Shown piece after piece: positions 22,908-32,874 of a stretch of 41,371 nucleotides of DNA. A program made the translations under genes and the position numbers. Below the pieces are notes generated by a model that made no database searches, was not told where the DNA came from, and saw only the letters and a program-made list of their open reading frames with translations. The DNA comes from a virus: IMG/VR virus record IMGVR_UViG_3300045988_035840; one strand, given 5' to 3'. Numbering within the stretch: the stretch's first letter is position 1; each line of letters starts with the position of its first letter.

Positions 22908-24098
22908 TTATCTTTGTCTCAATACGTGCGCCCTAGCCGTTCCATGGCTTGCTACGGATAACTTTTTTAAGGCTACGTATCGTATTGCGTCTATGCCGTG
23001 GTTAAATGCGTCTATAGGCTGGTTCGTTGTCTCTCCATCCCTTGACTTCTTCCACTTGTATTGCTGCATGTTCCCGATGATGCCGTGGCTGCGTCTTGTT
23101 ATGTTGATGCGGAAACGCTTGAGAATGTCGATGCCGTTGTTGATGCTGTCCGCTCCCTTGGTGCTGCCGATTATCCACAGCCCTCGGTTGTGTATCTCCT
23201 GAATGCTCTTAGGCTCTGCCGAATCCGCAATGATAAGGTCTCGTTTCGTCCGTCCTTGTTCCTTGCATCGGTCTGCGATGTCATCGTTCGTCATTCCCGG
23301 CTGGTAGATTTCTTCGTCCACCCATAACTCTCCGTGTGCCAAAATAACGTGCTCCAGCGCAGTTGGGTCGTTAGTGAATCCGAAGTCCATACCCCTGCAT
23401 TCCATCTTCCACTCATCCCTTGGTGGCAGCTTGTCAACGATGCCCCAGTTAGTGAAGATAAGCCCGGTTATCTTTCCGGTTAATCCTCTTGCATAAACTC
23501 GCCACAGTTCGGGGTCGTCAATCTCTTCAATTTTCTTGTGTTCCTGCTCAGTCAGGAATCGGTTGTTTCGGTGGTCGCTCAGGATTAATCTGCAATCATC
23601 CCTTCCGATGATGTTGTTGTGTACCCAAAACCTTGCGCTTGGATTGTAGTCGATGAACACCTGCTTTCGGGTTCGGATTGCTAGCTGCCAAAACACTTCG
23701 TAGGTCACACCGTTCGCCTCGTTAACAAACAGATAGTCTCGCTTACCGTTCTTGGCATCCTGCGCATCTTGATAACTCTTGAACTCGATGATTGAGCCGT
23801 TCTTACCTCTGTAGCTGCTGTCGCTCTTGTTGTTCTTGAACCAGTCCAGCAGCTCTGCCCTTGTGTGCAGGATGGTGTCGAGGTCTCGCATGGCTCCCAC
23901 CTTTAGATTTGGGAGGTCTTGACCGCACACCGTGATAATTGCCCTTGGGTGTTCAAAAGAAAGCACTATAAGACGCTGCATGATGGTGTATGTCTTCCCC
24001 GAGGACGTGCCGCCCTGGTTCACAAGGAATCTCGGCTTCACGTCCGCATTCGGGTCATACAGTTCACCAATAACGTCAAATAGTGCCATTTCAAACAA
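22908..24098 (-). CDS. terL: Terminase large subunit (PBSX/Terminase_3-like, 396 aa)
   Basis: Walker A motif GGTSSGKT near the N-terminus, acidic nuclease-half motifs (IIADSAEP, DAFNHGIDAIRY), and the size typical of short PBSX-type TerL. Confidence 0.85.
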   Translation of the reverse strand: MFEMALFDVIGELYDPNADVKPRFLVNQGGTSSGKTYTIMQRLIVLSFEHPRAIITVCGQDLPNLKVGAMRDLDTILHTRAELLDWFKNNKSDSSYRGKNGSIIEFKSYQDAQDAKNGKRDYLFVNEANGVTYEVFWQLAIRTRKQVFIDYNPSARFWVHNNIIGRDDCRLILSDHRNNRFLTEQEHKKIEEIDDPELWRVYARGLTGKITGLIFTNWGIVDKLPPRDEWKMECRGMDFGFTNDPTALEHVILAHGELWVDEEIYQPGMTNDDIADRCKEQGRTKRDLIIADSAEPKSIQEIHNRGLWIIGSTKGADSINNGIDILKRFRINITRRSHGIIGNMQQYKWKKSRDGETTNQPIDAFNHGIDAIRYVALKKLSVASHGTARAHVLRQR

Positions 24099-24127: not shown

Positions 24128-24733
24128 TTATTCTTTATCCAATCCTTCACGCTCGATTACTTCCTGCTCGCTGGATGCGCACTGGTGTCCCGAGTTGATG
24201 TATCGTACCTCGATGCCGCCTTGGAAGCCTGCGTTCAGGTCGAGCACGACCTTATCAAGTCCGAGCAGCTTGCAAATCTGCGTCTCAGCCTTTAGGATGA
24301 TGTCAAGATACCTTGGGTCTCCTAGTCCTCGCTTCTCAGCATCGAACATTATCGCCTTGACGGTATCCATCGTTACCAACCCAGTGTCTGGATCCTTGTT
24401 AGGCAGTCCGACTTGTGTCTGTGTCTTGCTGTTATAGTCCGCTTTGGATTTCTCCCATGCGTCCCAGGCTTCACGTATCACCAGTTTCAACCTTGCCACC
24501 TCGCTTGTTATCTTTTCGTCCGTGTCGGTCAGTCTCTCTTCCCTCCACTCCTTCAATAACCGCTGAATGTCGCAGTGCGCTTGATTGTATTTCGGTCTGT
24601 CGAGCCGCTTGCGAACCTCTGCCGTGATTTCTCGCTCCGTCCATCCCTTGCGGTATAGGGGTGCGATAATCTGCAGGCGGTTCTCGATGTCGATTTTCTG
24701 CGCTCGATGTTTGTTGTTATTACCTTGTGGCAT
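24128..24733 (-). CDS. terS: Terminase small subunit candidate (201 aa)
   Basis: Lies immediately upstream of terL. It has an HTH-like N-terminus (YRKGWTEREITAEV) and a helical oligomerisation-like middle. Confidence 0.5.
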   Translation of the reverse strand: MPQGNNNKHRAQKIDIENRLQIIAPLYRKGWTEREITAEVRKRLDRPKYNQAHCDIQRLLKEWREERLTDTDEKITSEVARLKLVIREAWDAWEKSKADYNSKTQTQVGLPNKDPDTGLVTMDTVKAIMFDAEKRGLGDPRYLDIILKAETQICKLLGLDKVVLDLNAGFQGGIEVRYINSGHQCASSEQEVIEREGLDKE

Positions 24734-24745
24734 ACGATTCTTGAT

Positions 24746-25990
24746 TTAAAATTTCGCTCCGTTGTACTTGTATACGATGTTTCCCTCGCTGTCTCGTTCG
24801 TCAGCTGGCAACATTGCCCCTTCGAACATCTTGTATGGCGAGTGCGCTGCCTGCGGATTGTTCCAGCACCACTTCATGTAGTCGGCTGCGCTCATCGTGT
24901 AATACTTCGAGTACTTCTCTCTTGTTCCCAGGTTCATCGCCTTCTCAAGTCTCGCCCTCAAAAGGTTCTCTGCATCCAGCTTGATGTCGCTCCACCTCAC
25001 GTATCCCTTGCGCTTGCAAATGTTCAGTGCTTCGCACATCTGCCCCCTGCTGTAGTTCCACGTTGGCGGCAATCCGCAACAACTTCCGTTGTGGCAAAGT
25101 TCCTTGAAGTGTGCGTCCGATACATAAAAGCGCATTCCCAGCTGGTCGCACAGTTCCTTCATGTTCCTGAAGAACGGTTCTTTGACCTTGCGGTTCAGTC
25201 TCAGATAGCCGGACTGTACGCTGTACTTCTTGTAGAATGCGAGAATGTCGAAACCTGCCATCTTGCTGATGGTAGGCAACAATTCCCTCAATGTCGGGCT
25301 TCTCGTTTCGAGACAGAAGAATTCGGTGCTCAAAGCTGTAGCCCCTCTGTTGAATGCTTCCTTGATAAGGTCGAGGTACGTTGGCGTGCTCACTCCGATG
25401 ATGAAGGGTCTCAGTCTCAGCGTTGCACCTCCTGCCCCTGCATTGGCGATGCGCTCGATGGCTTCCAGTCTTGCTTGTGGGCTTTCCACCCCTCGCTCTA
25501 TTACTCTAGCCTTCTCTGCATCGCTGGTGATAATTGAGAACTTGAAGTTCCAGTTCTTCTGCCCTCTGATCAAGTCCATGTATCGCTCATCTTTGGTGAA
25601 CCATGCACCCTTGGTCGAGAAGCAAAGCGGATAGTCTATATCCTTGAAGAAGCGCAAAAGTTCCAGTGTCGTTCCGTACTTACGTTCGAAGTTGTCGAAC
25701 TGGTCGCTCATGCTTCCCCACTGCATAACCTTTCGAGCCTTGATGTATGGCGCAAAGTCTCCACCGTGCTTGTCGGGGTCAATGAACATTCGTTTGATGC
25801 GTTCAACGCTCACGTCCTTAACCTCCTTGTGCAGGTATTCCTTCTTCTTGCTGCCAATACCTCGCTGGTTCTGAGCAAAGCAATACATACAGCCAAAGCT
25901 GCAATTATTGTAAGTATCAAAAGCCATTGGCATTGAGCAGTCGGGAAACTCGTATGTTATTCTTGGCGTGTTGCCATAATGTTCTGCCAT
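24746..25990 (-). CDS. Radical SAM enzyme, SplB/COG1533-like ('DNA repair photolyase' family), 414 aa
   Basis: DTYNNCSFGCMYCFAQ contains the CxxxCxxC cluster in the D.Y..C..gC.YC(Y/F)A context of the spore-photoproduct-lyase-like clade. It starts 4 nt after the stop of the P-loop gene. Confidence 0.7.
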   Translation of the reverse strand: MAEHYGNTPRITYEFPDCSMPMAFDTYNNCSFGCMYCFAQNQRGIGSKKKEYLHKEVKDVSVERIKRMFIDPDKHGGDFAPYIKARKVMQWGSMSDQFDNFERKYGTTLELLRFFKDIDYPLCFSTKGAWFTKDERYMDLIRGQKNWNFKFSIITSDAEKARVIERGVESPQARLEAIERIANAGAGGATLRLRPFIIGVSTPTYLDLIKEAFNRGATALSTEFFCLETRSPTLRELLPTISKMAGFDILAFYKKYSVQSGYLRLNRKVKEPFFRNMKELCDQLGMRFYVSDAHFKELCHNGSCCGLPPTWNYSRGQMCEALNICKRKGYVRWSDIKLDAENLLRARLEKAMNLGTREKYSKYYTMSAADYMKWCWNNPQAAHSPYKMFEGAMLPADERDSEGNIVYKYNGAKF

Positions 25991-25994
25991 ATCC

Positions 25995-26525
25995 TCATGA
26001 ATTTATTTTGTTGATGATAAAGTCTGCGATTCGGTCTGCTGTCTGCTTCGTGGTGTCTATCGCTACAACGTCACAACCCGCAGTTTGCCATTTCTTTGCC
26101 GAGTGTGCCGATTCTCGCTGTCCCCGGATAATATCCTTGCTCAACGTTCCGTTCGACCGTTCTGCGAGCCTTTTTTGGATTTCTTCGAGTGGTGCGTATA
26201 AGAAGATTACAATCTGTCTGTCCGCATTGAACATTGCGTGCGTCAAGTTCGGACCCCAGCATTTAAGTCTCATCCCTTCGCAAATGATGCAGTCGGTGCT
26301 CTCCAGTGCCTTCTTCACGATGTCACGAAGTATGGTCGTACCGTTCAGATTGTCAACACCTCCGTACTTAACATCGTATCGCCCTGCAAATGCAACTCCA
26401 TCCCTGGTGCTGCTTATTCCGTTCGAATAGCTTTCGATTCCACCAAAGCTTTCTATCAGCTTTCGGGCAACGGTGCTCTTTCCGCTGGCGTTGGTTCCAA
26501 TGATAAAAACACAAGTCTTTCTCAT
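25995..26525 (-). CDS. P-loop NTPase / small-molecule or nucleotide kinase-like protein (176 aa)
   Basis: Walker A motif IIGTNASGKST at residues 8-18. Its size and layout resemble AAA_33/zeta-type kinases. Confidence 0.65.
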   Translation of the reverse strand: MRKTCVFIIGTNASGKSTVARKLIESFGGIESYSNGISSTRDGVAFAGRYDVKYGGVDNLNGTTILRDIVKKALESTDCIICEGMRLKCWGPNLTHAMFNADRQIVIFLYAPLEEIQKRLAERSNGTLSKDIIRGQRESAHSAKKWQTAGCDVVAIDTTKQTADRIADFIINKINS

Positions 26526-26630
26526 ATTCGAGTTATTTTTGTTAAATTTCGCCTCTGCCGGATTGAATTGTTCAGAGCGGATAGTTTATCCATTTCAAAC
26601 GTTTCTCCGACTTAAACGCTAAATTTCCGA

Positions 26631-27272
26631 CTATTCGGTTTTTTCTTTGAGTTCGTCCACATCAAAGTTGCGCTTCTCGATTGCGTCAAGTCCCAGCATA
26701 TCTGCCACGGCTTGTGCGTCCTCGCTGCGGTAAACGATGATGATGCGCTGTTCTTCGTCCTCTGCTGGTTCGTAGGTCGTGGCTTCCTGCTGGATTTCCC
26801 AGGGGTTCAATCCCCATCGCTGCATATCGTCAACGTCAAATGCTCCCTTTAGCTTCTCTTCATCCCAGCTGCCAAAATAGACGTTATCCTTGATGATGAA
26901 CTCGTCCGTCTCTTCCTCGGATAGGCTGTCAGCCATAACGACCTCGACCTTTGGTTCTGCCTTCCACTTCTCCCAGTGGCTGCAAAGCTGCTGCTTCTCT
27001 CCATCGGTCAGTTTCACGGCAACGGTCTCTATTGCGTTCTTGATAGCTTCGTCTTCCATCTGCTCGATGTTGAGCAGGGCACGGAAGCGCATGTTTCCTC
27101 CGAGGATAACTCGGTTCTCATTACAGACGATTGGTCTCATCTGCAACATCTTTGGAAACGTCAGAATACTCTCAACGAGTTTCTGCATCTGCTGTGGCTC
27201 AATGCTGCGTGGGTTGTCTTGGTTCTCCACCAGGTCGTGCAGGTTGATGTTCTCGATTTTATTCTTCTCCAT
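26631..27272 (-). CDS. ParB/Srx-fold N-terminal domain protein, paralogue B (213 aa)
   Basis: Motifs ENQDNPRSI, RPIVCNENRVILGGNMRFRAL, IIKDNVYFGSWD and WGLNPW. It is a clear paralogue of 27259..28032 and overlaps it by 14 nt. Confidence 0.7.
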   Translation of the reverse strand: MEKNKIENINLHDLVENQDNPRSIEPQQMQKLVESILTFPKMLQMRPIVCNENRVILGGNMRFRALLNIEQMEDEAIKNAIETVAVKLTDGEKQQLCSHWEKWKAEPKVEVVMADSLSEEETDEFIIKDNVYFGSWDEEKLKGAFDVDDMQRWGLNPWEIQQEATTYEPAEDEEQRIIIVYRSEDAQAVADMLGLDAIEKRNFDVDELKEKTE

Positions 27273-28032
27273 TGTCTTCCTCCTTTCCTTCTTGTCTTGG
27301 TTTCAGTTCGTCAAAGTTCCAGACGATGCGGTCGATATGATCAACTCCCAGAAGCTTGGCAAGGAATGGCTCATCGGCTGGCTTGTAGTGAATGATTACG
27401 TTCTCACGTGGCAAAACGCCATCGCCCATTATCGTTGGCAAGTCGTCAGGAGTTAAGTCTTGCCCTTCGATTTCAGGAGGTAGTTCCCCTGCGAATGGGT
27501 CGCCCTCTTGGTCGTCCTTGTCTTTCTTCTTGCACTTGCTGGTGCTGCTTGCTTCCACTGGTGCTGGGTTCCAGACTGGCATACCCCAGTTCTGAAGCTG
27601 TGCGCTGTCCCATCGGTTCGCAAGGTCGTTGAAGTCCCAGTTGCCGAAGGATAGGTTGTCTTTAATCATAAACTCCTGCTTTTGTGCTTCTGTCAAGTCT
27701 GATGCGCTCACCACGGTAACTGTTGGCTGCTGCTGCCATCCCTGCCAATACTCCATCAATACGGCTTGCTCCTCATCGGACAGACGCTGCTCTGCATCCA
27801 GCTTTACTTGAATGCTTGCTTCGTCCATCGTGACAATGTGCTGCAAGGCTTTCAGTCTCATGTTGCCACCCAATGCGTGGAAGGTCTCATCAACAACAAT
27901 CGGGCGCAGGGTCAACATTCTTGGGAACACAATGATGCTCTGCACAAGCTTCTGAAAGTTCGCTTGACTTATCTCTCTAGGGTTCGCCTCATTCTCGCTG
28001 ACCCTCGATAGTGCGATTTCTTCTGTTTTCAT
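27259..28032 (-). CDS. ParB/Srx-fold N-terminal domain protein, paralogue A (257 aa)
   Basis: Motifs ENEANPREI, RPIVVDETFHALGGNMRLKAL, MIKDNLSFGNWD and WGMPVW, with an acidic C-terminus. It is the first gene after promoter P3. Confidence 0.7.
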   Translation of the reverse strand: MKTEEIALSRVSENEANPREISQANFQKLVQSIIVFPRMLTLRPIVVDETFHALGGNMRLKALQHIVTMDEASIQVKLDAEQRLSDEEQAVLMEYWQGWQQQPTVTVVSASDLTEAQKQEFMIKDNLSFGNWDFNDLANRWDSAQLQNWGMPVWNPAPVEASSTSKCKKKDKDDQEGDPFAGELPPEIEGQDLTPDDLPTIMGDGVLPRENVIIHYKPADEPFLAKLLGVDHIDRIVWNFDELKPRQEGKEEDNGEE

Positions 28033-28059
28033 TTTCTTCTTGTTTTAAGTTCGAAATAC

Positions 28060-28091
28060 GTGCTTATCTGATAAACACTGGCGCAAAGATA
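28060..28091 (-). promoter_or_regulatory. Promoter P3 -7 box plus operator-like dyad, ahead of the ParB/rSAM/terminase operon
   Basis: Minus-strand TATCTTTG (plus 28084-28091), a 5-nt gap, then the dyad GTGCTTATCTGATAAACAC (28060-28078, 9+1+9 with one arm mismatch). No clear TTTG at -33. Confidence 0.5.
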
Positions 28092-28165: not shown

Positions 28166-28702
28166 TCAAAGGGCTCTGATGGTCTTTTGCAGGGTTGTCT
28201 GCGGTTTCTTCGGCTTCACTCTGACCTTGTATCCTGCGCATACCCATGCGAGGAGAAGTGCGTCTCTCTGGTCTTGGTTCATTCTCGGCATCTTTTCTCC
28301 TGCGCTTACAAAATAAGCAAGTTCGTCTTGCGTGATTTTTCCGTCTTTACCCTTCCAGCACTTCTTTAGTGGCTTGACGATTTCGCAGGGGATATTGTAA
28401 TGTTTACAGCACTCAACAATCAAGATTCCGGTCTGATGGTTCATTCCGGTAGAGCGTCCGATTGCTGCTGCCTTGACTGCTGTCATGAACCGATTAAGCA
28501 CATGCCAGTTGCTTTTGTTGAGCCAGCCGCCTTCAATAACGACCTTAATCTTTTTGCAACTCTCGTTCATAGCCTTGAGGTAATCTATCAAAGCTGGGAA
28601 GTTCATCTTATAAGCGAGAAACTTCTTGTCGTCAAAGACTGCTCCAACTCCGCTTTCCAGGTTGTCGGGGTCGATTCCGATTATAACTGTTCCTTTTTCC
28701 AT
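28166..28702 (-). CDS. RuvC-like Holliday junction resolvase (178 aa from the ATG at 28702)
   Basis: IIGIDPD near the N-terminus, VVIEGGW, and QDQRDALLLAW near the C-terminus match the RNase H-fold D-E-D-D layout of RuvC-type resolvases. The track ORF extends to 28783. Confidence 0.65.
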   Translation of the reverse strand: MEKGTVIIGIDPDNLESGVGAVFDDKKFLAYKMNFPALIDYLKAMNESCKKIKVVIEGGWLNKSNWHVLNRFMTAVKAAAIGRSTGMNHQTGILIVECCKHYNIPCEIVKPLKKCWKGKDGKITQDELAYFVSAGEKMPRMNQDQRDALLLAWVCAGYKVRVKPKKPQTTLQKTIRAL

Positions 28703-28787
28703 TTTTTCTTTAAAGTACTTATTTTGTTCAAATTTCACGCATAAGCGTTTATTTTGTTTTGCTGGTGTAGTTTTACGCAACACCCTT

Positions 28788-29577: not shown

Positions 29578-30861
29578 CTAGAATGGGTCTGACGTGAAGG
29601 TGAGGTGCTCATTGCCCTCGAATGGGATGCAGAAGGCGAAGTCCGCTACTTTTCCGCTTTGGATGGGCAAGACATTATATCTATAAATTGCTCCCTCTCC
29701 ACGGTCACTAACAAAGAAGGCTGGCTGCCAATTGTATTCCTCTCCATTACTCACCAGCACCTTGTCGAAGGTCTTGAAGGCTGACTGCTCCTCGCTCTTC
29801 TTTTCCTTGCTCTTCTCCCATAGGTAATAAGCCTCTCGGAACGTGCAATATTCGTCATCTGTTGCTTCTCGCAGTTCCTTGTTAACGCTGATACGCAGGT
29901 CGAAGGTTTGGTCGGTCACGAACTTCTCGTTCTCGATTTCGTACTGGTTGCCGAATGTCAGCGTATCTTCGCTTTCGTTCTTGTCGATGAGTTTACCGAT
30001 GATTGTCAACTCTCCGTCCTCGTCTTCCTCTTTGAAAACGTAGAGTTTGCCGATTTCAAACGCTGGCTTCAAGTCCACAATCTGTTTCTTCTCAATATCC
30101 CAGCGTTTGCCTTTCTTTTCTAGAGCTGAGAAGAGCTGTTCTTTCTCTTCTTCTGTGGCAAGGCGAATTTCTACGATACTTTCTTTGCATATTTTTAATT
30201 TACCAGAGGTATCTAATTTCTGCGTTCTAGGGACTAGTGAAACGTGGTCAAATAAGTCACCATTCTTTTTAGAGTATTTAAAGATTTCAATAAAATTATC
30301 GCCCTGGCATTTTACAAACAAAACATCTCCCTCCTTGAACTCAGGCTGAGGTTTCTCAATCTCCAGAGTTTCACGGTTCAACTTACCACCAAATCGCTCT
30401 TCGATTTCTGTTACATAAATTTCAGAATCTGCACGGTTCAATTTTTGGAAGGTATTTGTAGAAAGATTACCTTCGTTCTGATACCATTTGTCTTCATAAC
30501 AATCATGCGCAAACTTTCCCTTAAAAGCTCGGTAAGTGTTGTCCTCAAAACAATCAAAGATTGTATAGTACGGCTTCTTTCCTTCGTAACAAATAAGCAC
30601 GTCTCCCTTCTTGAAGAACTTGCTCCAGTCTCTCATTTCCTTTGATGGGAAAAGCAGGACTTCTCCTTCTTTATAGATTTTTCCGTTCTTGTCGAAAAAG
30701 TGTTCTCTTCCAGCTTCGTCCTCAGTCCAGATTGCTTTCGCACTGTCCTTGTCGTTTGCCATTCCACTGTGCCACACCCTTCCGCATTTTGGCGTGTACA
30801 ACTCTGTACCATACTCTTCATCTTTGAGTATCTCATAAATATCAATATCTTTCTGTTCCAT
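29578..30861 (-). CDS. Repeat-containing hypothetical protein (427 aa)
   Basis: Four or more internal modules each begin with an F(K/E).GD.(V/L)-type motif (FKKGDVLICYEG, FKEGDVLFVKCQG, FEIGKLYVFKEE, FKTFDKVLVSNG). Looks AT-rich by eye. Confidence 0.65.
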   Translation of the reverse strand: MEQKDIDIYEILKDEEYGTELYTPKCGRVWHSGMANDKDSAKAIWTEDEAGREHFFDKNGKIYKEGEVLLFPSKEMRDWSKFFKKGDVLICYEGKKPYYTIFDCFEDNTYRAFKGKFAHDCYEDKWYQNEGNLSTNTFQKLNRADSEIYVTEIEERFGGKLNRETLEIEKPQPEFKEGDVLFVKCQGDNFIEIFKYSKKNGDLFDHVSLVPRTQKLDTSGKLKICKESIVEIRLATEEEKEQLFSALEKKGKRWDIEKKQIVDLKPAFEIGKLYVFKEEDEDGELTIIGKLIDKNESEDTLTFGNQYEIENEKFVTDQTFDLRISVNKELREATDDEYCTFREAYYLWEKSKEKKSEEQSAFKTFDKVLVSNGEEYNWQPAFFVSDRGEGAIYRYNVLPIQSGKVADFAFCIPFEGNEHLTFTSDPF

Positions 30862-31812: not shown

Positions 31813-32874
31813 TTATTTTTCGGGCTTCCAGTCGATGCCCAGCCGTTGAAGAACTCCACGTTCGTAATATCTTGTCAGCGAATCCTTTGCAGGCTTGTTG
31901 TTCGGGTTCTTCTTAAGGTCTTCGAGGTTCTGCTGGATTACCCACCGGAACTTGCTGTCTTGGCTCTGCTGGCTCGCTGGCTGCTGGTGCTTGGCTTGCT
32001 CGTAGAGTTCCCCGATGCTCGGACGTGCTGTTGCCGCAGGATCCTGCGCCTTGACTGCTGCCGATTGCGGCTGCTGGCTTGTGGCTGGCTCGTTGTTAAA
32101 GTTGCCTTCCAGCACCTTTGCAAAGTTCTGCTCATTGCCGAATATCCAATCAAACTTTCCGAGCCACCCATGCTTGTTGTTTCCGTTCATGAAGTCAGAT
32201 GCCATCGCAATGTCAATTACCCGGTACAGAGTTTTCACGTCTCCCTTGCATTGACGAACCCTTGCCTTGACCATCACCTTGCGGTTCTCGGTCATGAGCG
32301 TAATAGGCGGCATCGCACTCTTCGTTTCATTATGCTTGCGGTTCCAGTATTCCTTTACGGCAGCGTAGTCTATCTTTTGAGATTTCGAACCCTTGCCGCC
32401 ACCGGGTGCTTCGGGCTTGACCGATGCACTCTGAATACCTTCTTTAGAAGGTTTATTATCTGTTTCTTTAGAAACATCATCTACATTATCATAAACATTA
32501 TCATTTACATATACATTATCATTATCATATAAGGTTTTTGAAAAAACCTCTTGGTTTTGTTTGGTTATTTCTGAAACCTCTTGGTTTTTATCTAAACCAA
32601 GAGGTTTTTGTTTATCCTCTTGGTTTTTTCTTGGTCTGCCACCCTTTTTGCCATTGGCTCGCCATCGTTCTACCTTCTCTTCATACTTGGCTTTATTCCG
32701 TTTCATATCGTCAACGATAAAACCGAAAGCCATACGCACGACTGGTTCGAGACTAATAGTCTCTCCATCCCTTGCGTAGAGAAATATCGCTCTCGTCAGT
32801 TGCCCGAGTTGTTCATCGGTCAGCCCCTCGATAAGAGCGTAGTATGATGTGTATAAGATGAATGAATCGTTCAT
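31813..32874 (-). CDS. Replication initiator / replisome-organiser-like protein (353 aa)
   Basis: The N-terminus FILYTSYYALIEGLTDEQLGQLTRAIFLYARDG and the C-terminus ITLMTENRKVMVKARV...FDWIFGNEQNFAKVLEGNF resemble conserved phage replication-protein end domains (from memory). The central linker is encoded by DNA repeats. Confidence 0.5.
   Translation of the reverse strand: MNDSFILYTSYYALIEGLTDEQLGQLTRAIFLYARDGETISLEPVVRMAFGFIVDDMKRNKAKYEEKVERWRANGKKGGRPRKNQEDKQKPLGLDKNQEVSEITKQNQEVFSKTLYDNDNVYVNDNVYDNVDDVSKETDNKPSKEGIQSASVKPEAPGGGKGSKSQKIDYAAVKEYWNRKHNETKSAMPPITLMTENRKVMVKARVRQCKGDVKTLYRVIDIAMASDFMNGNNKHGWLGKFDWIFGNEQNFAKVLEGNFNNEPATSQQPQSAAVKAQDPAATARPSIGELYEQAKHQQPASQQSQDSKFRWVIQQNLEDLKKNPNNKPAKDSLTRYYERGVLQRLGIDWKPEK
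32483..32627. repeat. Origin-like repeat block inside the replication gene
   Basis: ACATTATCAT x3 (32483, 32495, 32513) in an AT-rich stretch. Then CCTCTTGGTTT-type boxes at 32546-58, 32576-88, 32594-605 (inverted) and 32615-27. Boxes 2 and 3 form a 14-bp-arm palindrome. Confidence 0.55.

What the first reader, a model, noticed from the sequence alone, without database searches (positions are those of the whole stretch)
24746..28091. Radical SAM (SplB-like) + P-loop NTPase + tandem ParB/Srx paralogues as one operon upstream of the terminase: candidate DNA-directed system
Four tightly packed genes follow the dyad-bearing promoter P3.
- Two paralogous ParB/Srx-fold proteins share the motifs NPR, LGGNMR(L/F)(K/R)AL, IKDN..FG.WD and WG..(V/P)W, and overlap by 14 nt.
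- A 176-aa Walker A protein carries GTNASGKST.
- The radical SAM gene starts 4 nt after it. Its cluster context DTYNNCSFGCMYCFAQ is that of the spore-photoproduct-lyase-like COG1533 clade, whose characterised members act on DNA.
- The operon continues into TerS and TerL.
From established knowledge, P-loop kinases and radical SAM enzymes take part in phage thymidine hypermodification pathways. ParB/Srx domains are nucleotide-dependent DNA clamps or nucleases and are often fused to phage DNA methyltransferases. No hydroxymethylase, glycosyltransferase or methyltransferase is present, so the block does not match a known pathway. My inference is a DNA modification, repair or packaging-coupled anti-restriction function that has not been described. 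This is the strongest candidate in the window for a novel system.
Basis: partly seen in the sequence, partly recalled or inferred. Interest (0 to 1): 0.7.

Follow-up and report, generated by a model that had tools for sequence, protein, structure and literature searches.

The report
Radical-SAM DNA hypermodification cassette in gut prophage
A Segatella copri prophage carries, just before its DNA-packaging genes, a four-gene cassette that most likely decorates thymines in phage DNA, and in which an oxygen-independent radical SAM enzyme occupies the place normally held by an oxygen-requiring TET/JBP-type oxidase.

Summary
In detail: four co-oriented, tightly packed genes (ParB-A, ParB-B, P-loop kinase, radical SAM enzyme) lie directly upstream of the terminase genes in a temperate Segatella copri phage.

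**What the comparisons show**
- The rSAM family is large (about 1,200 clusters at 50% identity) and comes almost only from gut and rumen anaerobes. No GenBank phage carries it.
- Its closest solved structure is spore photoproduct lyase.
- In 22 dereplicated loci, ParB accompanies the rSAM in 20.
- The genes between ParB and rSAM are swapped among enzymes of thymidine hypermodification: 5-hmdU-DNA-kinase-like kinases, amino-acid:DNA transferases, GNATs, GATases, TET-associated glycosyltransferases (TAGT) and a heptose-nucleotide cassette.
- At least eight cluster representatives fuse the rSAM to TAGT. One fuses kinase, rSAM and TAGT.
- No TET/JBP oxidase or thymidylate-synthase-like hydroxymethylase was found in the window or in nine other contexts.

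**Interpretation**
This mirrors the recently published ParB-dependent phage thymine dioxygenase clusters, with the rSAM replacing the dioxygenase. I infer a post-replicative pyrimidine hypermodification pathway primed by an O2-independent rSAM. ParB would act as its activator and the kinase would act on the product. The chemistry is inferred, not shown, and the end product in this minimal cassette is unknown.

It is a new variant of a known kind and of high interest.

The parts
28084..28091 (-). Bacteroidetes-type -7 promoter box (TAtcTTTG) about 50 nt upstream of the ParB-A start. It is the likely start of the late operon.
   Evidence: Read directly from the sequence. It matches the TAnnTTTG consensus as I know it. 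The sigma-70 scan gave only chance-level hits. No significant dyad was found.
27259..28032 (-). ParB-A. It has a ParB/Srx-fold nucleotide-binding domain (aa 1-125), a disordered acidic linker carrying the conserved LPPEIxGxDLxPxxLP motif, and a small C-terminal domain. No HTH DNA-binding domain is apparent. It is the orthologue of the ParB found next to the rSAM in relatives.
   Evidence: PHROG ParB-like families, E 1e-15 to 1e-19. AF2 followed by Foldseek: top hits are M. xanthus ParB-CTPgS, Noc, B. subtilis and C. crescentus ParB, KorB and Srx. It is 40-54% identical to ParBs adjacent to rSAM genes elsewhere. N17, R19, S32 and R59 are invariant and spaced as N14, R16, S29 and R56 of ParB176.
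26631..27272 (-). ParB-B, a shorter paralogue of ParB-A. It keeps the same N- and C-terminal domains but lacks the acidic linker motif.
   Evidence: 34% identity to ParB-A, E 6e-44. PHROG ParB-like, E 4e-20. A second ParB also occurs in L090, L118 and L141.
25995..26525 (-). P-loop kinase. It is a divergent relative of the phage 5-hmdU DNA kinase and Ploopntkinase3 families.
   Evidence: Walker A GTNASGKST. Pfam AAA_18 and SKI, with weak HMUD2. A profile of its orthologues against a kinase scoring as HMUDK_HMUD1 gives hhalign 98.3%, E 1e-14. Against a Ploopntkinase3 kinase it gives 95.5%, E 2e-8. A similar kinase is fused N-terminally to the rSAM in P0130.
24746..25990 (-). Radical SAM enzyme of a phage-specific, SPL-like clade. 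It is the invariant component of the cassette and the proposed base-priming enzyme.
   Evidence: C30xxxC34xxC37 is invariant, and further Cys residues are conserved (C18, C226, C304, C305). PF04055. AF2 pLDDT 94.6. Foldseek top hit is spore photoproduct lyase, E 3e-8. It is a remote homologue of M6 gp53. Fusions to TAGT, a kinase and FkbM exist.
24128..24733 (-). Putative small terminase subunit. It is the downstream neighbour in the same transcription unit and not part of the modification chemistry.
   Evidence: Position between rSAM and TerL. Homologues (34-43% identity) hold the same position in relatives. No Pfam hit; the PHROG label is uninformative.
22908..24098 (-). Large terminase subunit (context).
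   Evidence: Pfam Terminase_3 and Terminase_3C; TIGR01547.

Best explanation
The four genes form a post-replicative DNA-base hypermodification cassette. It is expressed with the late packaging genes of a temperate Segatella copri phage.

**Proposed mechanism**
- The radical SAM enzyme is the priming enzyme. It resembles spore photoproduct lyase, which handles a thymine-methyl radical in DNA.
- It abstracts a hydrogen atom from the C5-methyl group of thymine in duplex DNA. 5-methylcytosine is a less likely substrate.
- It converts the methyl group into a functionalised form, most simply a hydroxymethyl group (5-hmdU). The conserved extra cysteines may serve as an auxiliary cluster or radical relay.
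- In doing so it would perform, without O2, the job that Fe/2OG TET/JBP-type dioxygenases (5mYOX) do in phages of aerobes.
- ParB-A, perhaps as a heterodimer with ParB-B, acts like the ParB activators of ParB-dependent thymine dioxygenases. It would load or hold the enzyme on double-stranded DNA.
- The P-loop kinase phosphorylates the new hydroxyl, as 5-hmdU DNA kinase does.
- In related phages the phosphorylated or hydroxylated base is further converted by AADT, GNAT, GATase or TAGT enzymes.
- This phage has the minimal version, so its end product is unknown. It could be a phosphomethyl base or a derivative made with host factors.
- The biological role would be protection of packaged DNA from host restriction.

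**Shown**
- Gene content, folds, homologies, synteny, fusions and the absence of alternative priming enzymes.

**Inferred**
- The substrate, the chemistry, the ParB role, the timing and the anti-restriction function.
For: **1. Fold**
- The rSAM AF2 model (pLDDT 94.6) matches spore photoproduct lyase best: E 3e-8, TM 0.48/0.58. That is about 200-fold better than any other rSAM structure.
- It is a remote homologue (hhalign 97%, E 6e-11) of M6 gp53, which PMC8989533 describes as the first rSAM enzyme shown to install a DNA modification.

**2. Fusions**
- Of 20 multidomain cluster representatives scanned, 8 fuse the rSAM to the TET-Associated Glycosyltransferase domain, in both orders: P0123, P0126, P0129, P0130, P0133, P0135, P0138 and P0149.
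- P0130 is kinase-rSAM-TAGT.
- P0131 carries an FkbM-type methyltransferase domain.

**3. Neighbourhood**
- In 22 dereplicated loci: ParB 20, kinase 12, AADT 10, GNAT 4, TAGT 3, SAM synthetase 3.
- Pfam on 150 neighbouring ORFs is led by ADDT (best E 5e-18), ParB_N, AAA_18, GNAT and HMUDK_HMUD1 (1e-10), followed by SAM synthetase, TAGT, Ploopntkinase3 and GATase_6.

**4. Cassette swapping in phages with the same backbone**
- ParB-ParB-kinase-rSAM (window; L141).
- ParB-GNAT-rSAM (L138-145).
- ParB-AADT-kinase-GNAT-rSAM (L092, L104).
- ParB-heptose cassette-TAGT-rSAM (L078-84).
- TAGT-rSAM (L088).
- Only the rSAM is constant, and ParB nearly so.

**5. No other priming enzyme**
- No TET/JBP or thymidylate-synthase-like gene is present in the whole window.
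- None appears in the precomputed Pfam of nine other contexts.
- The window phage encodes no DNA polymerase, so a pre-replicative route is unlikely.

**6. Literature parallel**
- ParB-dependent phage thymine dioxygenases are 'consistently linked' with GATases, P-loop kinases and AADTs. Across 5mYOX contigs generally, GTs co-occur in 31%, ParBs in 27% and terminases in 19% (PMC13229309).
- ParB176 has an NBD, a disordered linker and a CTD, without a DNA-binding domain. Its closest structures are M. xanthus and C. crescentus ParB. ParB-A matches on all these points, including the spacing of four key residues.

**7. Ecology**
- Hosts and sources are almost all strict anaerobes of gut and rumen, where an O2-dependent dioxygenase could not work.

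**8. SAM supply**
- Phage-encoded SAM synthetase lies next to the cassette in several relatives. This fits stoichiometric SAM consumption.
Against: - There are no biochemical data for any member of this rSAM family.
- I know of no precedent for rSAM-catalysed hydroxylation of a DNA base. The oxygen source and the electron acceptor are conjecture.
- The window lacks AADT and any glycosyltransferase. In the known pathways a kinase product would be only an intermediate.
- Sister phages carry ParB-GNAT-rSAM without a kinase. GNATs usually acetylate amines, so the primary product may not be a simple hydroxymethyl group.
- The only characterised relative, M6 gp53, is a tailoring isomerase and not a priming enzyme.
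- The window kinase scores below Pfam thresholds for the 5-hmdU kinase families (HMUD2 17.7 bits against a 25-bit cut-off). Its link to them rests on profile-profile comparison.
- Absence of TET/JBP was tested only with Pfam or PHROG models on a limited number of contexts. PMC13229309 notes that many phage 5mYOX escape the Pfam model.
- Co-occurrence counts rest on iterated BLAST from my own seeds, which can drift.
Confidence: 0.55

Rival explanations
1. The cassette is a DNA hypermodification pathway, but the rSAM is a downstream tailoring enzyme like M6 gp53, which rearranges an amino-acid-thymine adduct. The hydroxymethyl base would come from an unrecognised enzyme or from the host.
For: - Remote homology to M6 gp53 (hhalign 97%, E 6e-11).
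- About half of the loci contain AADT plus kinase, as the M6 cluster does (PMC8989533).
Against: - The rSAM occurs without AADT in the window, in the ParB-GNAT-rSAM and TAGT-rSAM cassettes, and in TAGT fusions. There a gp53-type substrate could not exist.
- No hydroxymethylase, TET/JBP or phage DNA polymerase is present in the window.
- The rSAM is the only invariant enzyme.
- Identity to gp53 is only 18%, and a tblastn search of GenBank phages does not retrieve the M6 genome.
Confidence: 0.13
2. The rSAM primes thymine, or another base, but not by hydroxylation. It would couple the base radical directly to a co-substrate such as an amino-acid-derived acceptor, the SAM-derived 5'-deoxyadenosyl group or the aminocarboxypropyl group. 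The variable transferases would then decorate that appendage.
For: - ParB-GNAT-rSAM cassettes lack both kinase and AADT, and GNATs typically N-acetylate.
- In the mechanism proposed for it, gp53 forms a C-C bond from a thymidyl radical (PMC8989533).
- SAM synthetase lies in the neighbourhood.
Against: The fused or adjacent partners are TAGT, kinases of the 5-hmdU DNA kinase type, AADT and FkbM-type methyltransferase. The first three are enzymes whose known or predicted substrate is a hydroxymethyl pyrimidine or its phosphate.
Confidence: 0.15
3. The pathway acts before replication, on nucleotides. The rSAM would modify dTMP, dUMP or dCMP. The P-loop protein would be a dNMP kinase feeding the modified nucleotide to the host replisome. 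ParB would have a separate DNA-handling role.
For: The kinase also resembles thymidylate, cytidylate and deoxynucleoside kinases at weak E-values.
Against: - The phage has no DNA polymerase, no dNTP-pool-remodelling enzymes and no dUTPase or dCTPase in the window.
- The rSAM's nearest structure is a DNA-acting enzyme.
- ParB pairs with the rSAM in 20 of 22 loci, and ParB is known to be needed by the analogous dioxygenase specifically on double-stranded DNA (PMC13229309).
- TAGT and AADT act on DNA.
Confidence: 0.07
4. The genes are functionally unrelated neighbours: an SPL-like DNA repair lyase, a nucleotide kinase, and ParB proteins serving partition or terminase-linked DNA recognition.
For: - Databases name the rSAM 'DNA repair photolyase'.
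- The block abuts TerS and TerL.
- As far as I know, ParB-like genes are common near phage terminases.
Against: - The rSAM has repeatedly fused to TAGT, in both domain orders, and to a kinase in one case.
- ParB stays with the rSAM when the pair lies in a replication module, with the terminase gene starting about 9 kb downstream (L136).
- UV photoproduct repair has no obvious value in gut anaerobes.
- The ParBs lack an HTH DNA-binding domain.
- Cassette swapping occurs at one fixed site in otherwise syntenic phages.
Confidence: 0.04

Closest known systems
ParB-dependent phage thymine dioxygenase clusters (5mYOX176/ParB176 type; O'Toole et al., PNAS 2026, PMC13229309)
   Same: - A ParB-like protein with a nucleotide-binding domain, disordered linker and C-terminal domain but no DNA-binding domain.
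- The ParB is paired with a base-priming enzyme.
- The pair is linked with P-loop kinases, AADTs, GATases and glycosyltransferases, often beside terminase genes.
- The same closest ParB structures (M. xanthus and C. crescentus ParB).
   Different: - There is no Fe/2OG TET/JBP dioxygenase. A radical SAM enzyme holds its position.
- Two ParB paralogues are present.
- Hosts are strict anaerobes.
- Activity and ParB dependence are untested here.
Pseudomonas phage M6 thymidine hypermodification pathway (5-HMUDK gp54, AADT, PLP decarboxylase gp52, rSAM isomerase gp53; Lee et al. 2018 and 2021, PMC5889632 and PMC8989533)
   Same: - An SPL-like rSAM together with a P-loop kinase, and in relatives AADT and acetyltransferase.
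- All act on the C5 substituent of thymidine in DNA.
- gp53 is a detectable remote homologue.
   Different: - M6 makes 5-hmdU before replication and needs AADT before the rSAM can act.
- The window has no hydroxymethylase, no AADT and no PLP enzyme.
- Identity to gp53 is only 18%.
- ParB is not among the M6 pathway components named in the parts of these papers I read.
Spore photoproduct lyase (SplB; PDB 4FHC)
   Same: - Best structural match.
- CxxxCxxC with a Tyr at the position equivalent to SPL Tyr96 (CxxxCxYC).
- An enzyme that acts on DNA and stabilises a thymine-methyl radical.
   Different: - No sequence-level match: phmmer and profile searches of the PDB find nothing.
- About 110 extra C-terminal residues carrying family-specific CCG and WNxP motifs.
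- Phe at the SPL Tyr98 position.
- The gene context is modification, not repair or sporulation.
Base J synthesis (JBP1/2 + JGT) and phage 5mYOX + GT-A/TAGT glycosylation clusters (PMC8256090; bioRxiv 10.1101/2023.12.21.572611)
   Same: - A priming enzyme plus a JGT-related or TET-associated glycosyltransferase. Here the two are even fused in one polypeptide in relatives.
- The cassette in L081 (phosphoheptose-isomerase-like ORF, cytidylyltransferase-like ORF, TAGT) resembles contig 53 of the preprint, whose enzymes install heptose on 5hmC.
   Different: - The priming enzyme is a radical SAM protein.
- The window phage itself has no glycosyltransferase.
Cellular COG1533 radical SAM families (PA0069, Rv2578c)
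   Same: Weak homology over the rSAM core (E 3e-15 and 2e-10). Both groups contain intein-bearing members.
   Different: - Scores are far below the family cut-offs (56 against 360 bits; 41 against 430 bits).
- The C-terminal half differs.
- The distribution is restricted to phages and prophages.

Membership tests
Radical SAM superfamily | CxxxCxxC cluster motif and a Pfam PF04055 match above the gathering score | tested here: met
   C30, C34 and C37 are invariant in 35 diverse homologues. PF04055 scores 31.5 bits against a 29.5-bit cut-off.
Radical SAM superfamily | Partial TIM-barrel rSAM fold | tested here: met
   AF2 model with pLDDT 94.6. Nearly all of the Foldseek PDB hits listed with E<=1e-3 are entries described as rSAM enzymes.
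Spore photoproduct lyase (SplB) | Sequence-level membership (a match to SPL sequences or models) | tested here: not met
   phmmer and a 35-sequence profile against all PDB chains do not retrieve SPL. No SPL model appears among the NCBIfam hits.
Spore photoproduct lyase (SplB) | SPL is the closest known fold | tested here: met
   The top five Foldseek hits are all SPL entries: E 2.5e-8 to 1.4e-7, TM 0.48/0.58. The next family scores 6e-6.
Spore photoproduct lyase (SplB) | Catalytic H-atom relay (Cys140, Tyr96, Tyr98 in G. thermodenitrificans SPL) | tested here: inconclusive
   By motif register, Y36 (34/35 conserved) sits at the Tyr96 position and F38 at the Tyr98 position.
PA0069 / Rv2578c COG1533 rSAM families | NCBIfam score above the curated cut-off | tested here: not met
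   56.3 against 360 bits and 40.7 against 430 bits.
M6 gp53-type rSAM isomerase | Close homology to gp53, with AADT and a PLP decarboxylase in the same cluster | tested here: not met
   Homology is only remote (18% identity, hhalign E 6e-11). No AADT or PLP enzyme is present in the window.
ParB/Srx superfamily | ParB N-terminal fold with the conserved phosphate- and base-binding residues | tested here: met
   PHROG ParB families, E 1e-15 to 1e-20. Foldseek top hits are ParB-CTP, Noc, KorB and Srx. N17, R19, S32 and G55-G56-N57-M58-R59 are invariant. Pfam ParB_N itself does not reach E 0.01 for the window proteins, though it does for proteins in the corresponding position beside rSAM genes elsewhere.
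Chromosome- or plasmid-segregation ParB | Central HTH DNA-binding domain, with a parS site and a ParA partner | tested here: not met
   No HTH region appears in the alignment or in the model, where residues 126-185 are disordered. No ParA-like gene turned up in the Pfam or PHROG scans of the window's other ORFs.
ParB-dependent 5mYOX thymine-hypermodification system (PMC13229309) | ParB activator with an NBD and a CTD, lacking a DNA-binding domain | tested here: met
   Architecture. The four residues mutated in ParB176 (N14, R16, S29, R56) have the same spacing as N17, R19, S32 and R59.
ParB-dependent 5mYOX thymine-hypermodification system (PMC13229309) | Fe(II)/2OG TET/JBP-family dioxygenase | tested here: not met
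   No TET_JBP or 2OG-oxygenase hit in any window ORF or in nine related contexts.
ParB-dependent 5mYOX thymine-hypermodification system (PMC13229309) | Linked tailoring enzymes (P-loop kinase, AADT, GATase, GT) | tested here: met
   The kinase is in the window. AADT, GATase, GNAT and TAGT occur in relatives at the same site.
ParB-dependent 5mYOX thymine-hypermodification system (PMC13229309) | Post-replicative oxidation of T in DNA, ParB-dependent on dsDNA | not testable with these tools
   Needs nucleoside LC-MS or in vitro assays.
5-hmdU DNA kinase (HMUDK / HMUD2 / Ploopntkinase3) | Pfam match above the gathering score | tested here: not met
   The window kinase scores 17.7 bits for HMUD2 against a 25-bit cut-off. 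Kinases from other loci, in the same cassette, do pass: L119 HMUDK_HMUD1 30.8 against 27, and L092 Ploopntkinase3 41.8 against 27.
5-hmdU DNA kinase (HMUDK / HMUD2 / Ploopntkinase3) | Full-length homology to bona fide members | tested here: met
   hhalign of the orthologue profile against the L119 kinase gives 98.3%, E 1e-14 over 181 columns. Against the L092 kinase it gives 95.5%, E 2e-8.

The most novel reading that the evidence does not exclude
The radical SAM protein is an oxygen-independent 5-methylpyrimidine (thymine) C5-methyl oxidase or hydroxylase. It would work on duplex DNA with a ParB-type activator. That would make it an anaerobic functional analogue of TET/JBP dioxygenases, and it would seed a whole family of DNA hypermodifications (phospho-, aminoacyl-, acetyl-, glycosyl- and heptosyl-) in phages of gut and rumen anaerobes.
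Probability: 0.4. Interest if true: 0.92.

Novelty: new variant of a known kind. Interest (0 to 1): 0.8.

Why it matters
**A possible missing priming enzyme**
- In the papers read here, post-replicative hydroxymethyl-pyrimidine routes in phages and eukaryotes all start from an O2-dependent TET/JBP dioxygenase.
- How phages of strict anaerobes could prime such modifications is unaddressed in the papers I could search.
- About 65% of phage DNA-glycosyltransferase-like contigs have no recognised priming enzyme nearby (bioRxiv 10.1101/2023.12.21.572611).
- A radical SAM enzyme fused to, or encoded next to, the same tailoring enzymes could fill part of that gap.

**If the chemistry is confirmed**
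- It would be a new DNA-directed radical SAM reaction.
- It would be a second, independent recruitment of ParB as a cofactor for a DNA-modifying enzyme.
- It could supply enzymes for oxygen-free, sequence-context-specific conversion of T or 5mC.

**Practical consequences**
- The carrier is a very common prophage of Segatella copri. Its protein clusters have thousands of members in human gut metagenomes.
- Modified DNA could bias sequencing, restriction-based methods and phage-host inference in microbiome work.

Tried and rejected
**Searches that gave nothing useful**
- Single-sequence and profile searches of PDB sequences returned nothing meaningful for the rSAM, ParB-B or the kinase. Only structure comparison was informative.
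- blastn and tblastn against 50,697 GenBank phages found no real homologue of the rSAM. No cultured phage can therefore be used as a reference.
- The BFVD structure search found only remote viral rSAM proteins at 14% identity or less.
- The sigma-70 promoter and terminator scan was at chance level.

- A 35-sequence alignment was too diverse for locus finding. A 9-sequence alignment worked.
It was redone with database homologues.
- The C-terminal half of the ParB-A model has low confidence, so the dimerisation domain is inferred from the alignment only.

**Literature limits**
- I looked for sequences of 5mYOX176 and ParB176, or of phage TETs, in paper supplements so as to compare them directly. 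None are held.
- Iyer et al. 2013 (NAR) could not be read. I cannot exclude that this rSAM-TAGT linkage was noted there.
- Full-text searches for 'radical SAM' together with '5mYOX' or 'TET-associated glycosyltransferase' gave zero papers.

**Explanations rejected**
- A repair function.
- An independent packaging role for ParB.
- Membership of SPL, of the PA0069/Rv2578c families, or of segregation ParBs. See the membership tests.

Full report
**1.

All four genes lie on the minus strand with the reported spacing.
- ParB-A is at 27259-28032 and ParB-B at 26631-27272, overlapping by 14 nt.
- A 176-aa Walker-A protein (GTNASGKST) is at 25995-26525.
- Four nucleotides after its stop codon, a 414-aa radical SAM protein (FDTYNNCSFGCMYCFAQ) starts, at 24746-25990.
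- A 201-aa ORF follows, then TerL at 22908-24098 (Pfam Terminase_3/3C).
- The two ParBs are paralogues: 34% identity, E 6e-44.
- A Bacteroidetes-type -7 box (TAtcTTTG, 28091-28084) precedes ParB-A.
- The reported dyad is weak and was not recovered.
- The 'TerS' label rests on position only.

**2. The element**

The window is a temperate siphophage of about 41 kb.
- It encodes an integrase (39319-40485), an HTH regulator, a YqaJ exonuclease, a DnaD/O-like initiator, a RuvC-like resolvase, a ClpP-type protease, a tape measure protein and a GH19 lysin.
- The rSAM gene is 100% identical to a gene in the chromosome of the cultured strain Segatella copri HDE04.
- IMG/VR holds 195 relatives. Of the 80 kept, 78 are 97-100% identical and come from human-gut data sets.
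- The window has no DNA polymerase, thymidylate-synthase-like hydroxymethylase, TET/JBP oxygenase, methyltransferase, glycosyltransferase or amino-acid:DNA transferase. This was checked by Pfam and PHROGs and by six-frame tblastn with seeds from relatives.

**3. The proteins**

*Radical SAM enzyme*
- It passes the Pfam rSAM threshold.
- It falls far below the NCBIfam cut-offs for the cellular COG1533 families PA0069 and Rv2578c.
- With a 35-sequence alignment AlphaFold gives a confident model, pLDDT 94.6.
- Its best matches in the PDB are the five spore photoproduct lyase entries: E about 3e-8, TM 0.48/0.58. That is about 200-fold better than any other rSAM enzyme.
- Sequence searches do not see SPL.
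- Besides the invariant C30/C34/C37 triad, C18, C226, C304 and C305 are conserved in 30-33 of 35 sequences.

*ParB-A*
- It has a confident N-terminal domain, residues 1-125.
- The closest structures to that domain are the CTP-bound ParBs of M. xanthus, B. subtilis and C. crescentus, together with Noc, KorB and sulfiredoxin.
- The remainder is an acidic disordered linker with a conserved LPPELxGxDLxPxxLP motif, followed by a small C-terminal domain. There is no HTH domain.

*Kinase*
- It is a generic P-loop kinase by Pfam.
- A profile of its orthologues aligns end to end with kinases from other rSAM loci that pass the Pfam thresholds for 5-hmdU DNA kinase (hhalign 98.3%, E 1e-14) and for Ploopntkinase3 (95.5%, E 2e-8).

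**4. The family and its company**

*Size and distribution*
- The rSAM has 2,216 homologues (E<=1e-5) among 90% clusters.
- It has 1,187 homologues (E<=1e-3; 160 at <=1e-30) among 50% cluster representatives.
- None is in GenBank phages.
- Genome hits are nearly all from gut, rumen or termite anaerobes: Bacteroidales, Clostridia, Victivallales and others.

*Fusions, among 20 long representatives scanned*
- Eight fuse the rSAM to the TET-Associated Glycosyltransferase domain, on either side.
- One is P-loop kinase-rSAM-TAGT.
- One carries an FkbM-type methyltransferase domain.
- Several contain inteins.

*Neighbours, in 22 dereplicated loci with enough upstream sequence*

| Neighbour | Loci |
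|---|---|
| ParB | 20 |
| Kinase | 12 |
| AADT | 10 |
| GNAT | 4 |
| TAGT | 3 |
| SAM synthetase | 3 |

- Pfam on 150 neighbouring ORFs is led by ADDT (best E 5e-18), ParB_N, AAA_18, GNAT and HMUDK_HMUD1 (1e-10). SAM synthetase, TAGT, Ploopntkinase3 and GATase_6 follow.

*Cassette variants at this site (the first two are in phages sharing the window's backbone)*
- ParB-ParB-kinase-rSAM.
- ParB-GNAT-rSAM.
- ParB-AADT-kinase-GNAT-rSAM.
- ParB-(heptose-nucleotide enzymes)-TAGT-rSAM.
- TAGT-rSAM.

*Two further observations*
- Where the module sits in a replication region, ParB still sits directly upstream of the TAGT-rSAM fusion (L136). An AADT gene sits directly upstream of the kinase-rSAM-TAGT fusion (L131).
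- None of nine distinct contexts with precomputed Pfam annotation shows a TET/JBP or thymidylate-synthase domain.

**5. Link to published work**

- O'Toole et al. (PNAS 2026, PMC13229309) describe phage thymine dioxygenases (5mYOX) that need a ParB-like activator on double-stranded DNA.
- That activator has a nucleotide-binding domain, a disordered linker and a C-terminal domain, but no DNA-binding domain. M. xanthus and C. crescentus ParB are its nearest structures.
- The ParB-dependent clusters are 'consistently linked' with GATases, P-loop kinases and AADTs. Across the 5mYOX contigs they mined, GTs co-occur in 31%, ParBs in 27% and terminases in 19%.
- ParB-A fits this description. Its invariant N17, R19, S32 and R59 have the same spacing as the ParB176 residues N14, R16, S29 and R56.
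- Lee et al. (PMC5889632, PMC8989533) established the biosynthetic route 5-hmdU, then 5-HMUDK, then AADT, then tailoring enzymes.
- They also showed that M6 gp53, an SPL-like rSAM, rearranges glycinyl-thymine on DNA. gp53 is a remote homologue of the present family: hhalign 97%, 18% identity.
- A preprint on phage DNA glycosyltransferases reports a bifunctional-enzyme/cytidylyltransferase/GT cassette that installs heptose on 5hmC. It notes that about 65% of GT-containing contigs have no recognised priming enzyme nearby.
- Full-text searches found no paper connecting radical SAM with 5mYOX or TAGT.

**6. Most likely mechanism**

*Shown*
- The rSAM is the constant element.
- It is accompanied by ParB and by interchangeable enzymes that transfer a group to a hydroxyl, or substitute an activated hydroxymethyl group, on a pyrimidine in DNA.
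- No other priming enzyme is encoded.

*Inferred*
- The rSAM abstracts a hydrogen atom from the thymine C5-methyl group in duplex DNA. This is the radical that SPL handles.
- It yields a hydroxymethyl, or otherwise nucleophile-bearing, base without O2.
- ParB-A, possibly with ParB-B, loads or holds it on dsDNA.
- The kinase phosphorylates the product.
- Expression from the promoter ahead of ParB-A, together with the terminase genes, would modify replicated concatemers just before packaging. This would protect the DNA from restriction in the next host.
- I give the whole statement about 0.55. The narrower claim that the block is a DNA-base hypermodification cassette gets about 0.85. The specific claim of T to 5-hmdU by the rSAM gets about 0.4.

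**7. What does not fit**

- The window has no AADT or GT, so in the known schemes a kinase product would be only an intermediate.
- ParB-GNAT-rSAM cassettes lack a kinase, and GNATs usually N-acetylate.
- The reason for having two ParBs is unknown.
- I know of no precedent for rSAM hydroxylation of a DNA base.
- These points keep three alternatives alive: the tailoring-enzyme rival (0.13), the direct-coupling rival (0.15) and the nucleotide-level rival (0.07).
- Unrelated neighbours or a repair function is unlikely (0.04), given the repeated fusions and the ParB linkage away from terminase.

**8. Classification**

- It works like the ParB-dependent 5mYOX hypermodification clusters.
- It is not a member of that system as defined, because the defining dioxygenase is absent.
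- It is not a member of SPL, PA0069/Rv2578c, the gp53 group or the segregation ParBs by the tests listed.
- I therefore file it as a new variant of a known kind: a phage post-replicative pyrimidine hypermodification cassette with a new class of priming enzyme.

**9. Limits**

- Everything about the chemistry is inference from context.
- Co-occurrence counts used a crude ORF caller and iterated BLAST from my own seeds.
- Absence of TET/JBP was tested with Pfam models that are known to miss divergent phage members.
- Iyer et al. 2013 could not be consulted.

Noticed in passing
window 1-41371 (integrase 39319-40485 +; HTH 36908-37264 +; YqaJ 33066-34007 -; initiator 31813-32874 -; RuvC-like 28166-28783 -): The window is essentially a complete temperate Segatella copri phage. 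Its rSAM gene is 100% identical to one in the S. copri HDE04 chromosome, and near-identical contigs are very frequent in human-gut viromes.
   Followed up: partly
window 29578-30861 (-): A 427-aa ORF with internal repeats (K[EK]GDVL-type) has no Pfam or PHROG match. A 237-aa homologue sits upstream of the ParB-GNAT-rSAM cassette in a sister phage with the same backbone (L138:6694-7407).
   Followed up: no
window 27436-27486 (ParB-A aa 183-199); alignment A6: A short linear motif, LPPE[LI]xGxDLxPxxLP, lies in the disordered acidic linker of ParB-A. It is conserved in ParBs adjacent to rSAM genes down to about 21-25% identity but is absent from ParB-B. It may be a docking peptide for a partner, such as the rSAM.
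   Followed up: partly
window 24746-25990 (-); rSAM residues C18, C226, C281, C304, C305: Four to five cysteines beyond the SAM-cluster triad are conserved in 26-33 of 35 diverse homologues. They could bind an auxiliary Fe-S cluster or form a radical or redox relay.
   Followed up: partly
window 26526-26630: The 105-nt non-coding gap between ParB-B and the kinase is the largest gap between adjacent genes of the block.
   Followed up: no
P0125, P0132, P0138, P0154, P0173, P0219 (rSAM homologues): Several homologues carry inteins and/or LAGLIDADG homing-endonuclease domains, apparently inserted within the rSAM. The cellular Rv2578c family also has an intein-containing variant (NCBIfam model name).
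   Followed up: no
L098:2156-3208, L095, L106, L115: A phage-encoded SAM synthetase lies immediately upstream of ParB in several relatives. This fits heavy SAM consumption by the cassette.
   Followed up: partly
L134:4874-8586: A 930-aa rSAM-family protein with an unassigned 500-aa C-terminal extension is followed by a second rSAM-SPASM gene. An N6/N4 DNA methyltransferase gene lies about 1.8 kb upstream, with two other genes between. This may be a more elaborate variant.
   Followed up: no
L138-L145 compared with window 24746-28032: Phages sharing the window's replication and structural backbone carry different cassettes at this one site (ParB-GNAT-rSAM against ParB-ParB-kinase-rSAM). The site looks like a hot spot of module exchange, as expected for an arms-race locus.
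   Followed up: partly
L081:3119-3871 and neighbours: The heptose/TAGT-type relatives also encode a DUF4417 protein (PHROG 'nuclease'), DUF1064 and a dUTPase just upstream of the cassette. Whether they are linked to the modification pathway is unknown.
   Followed up: no
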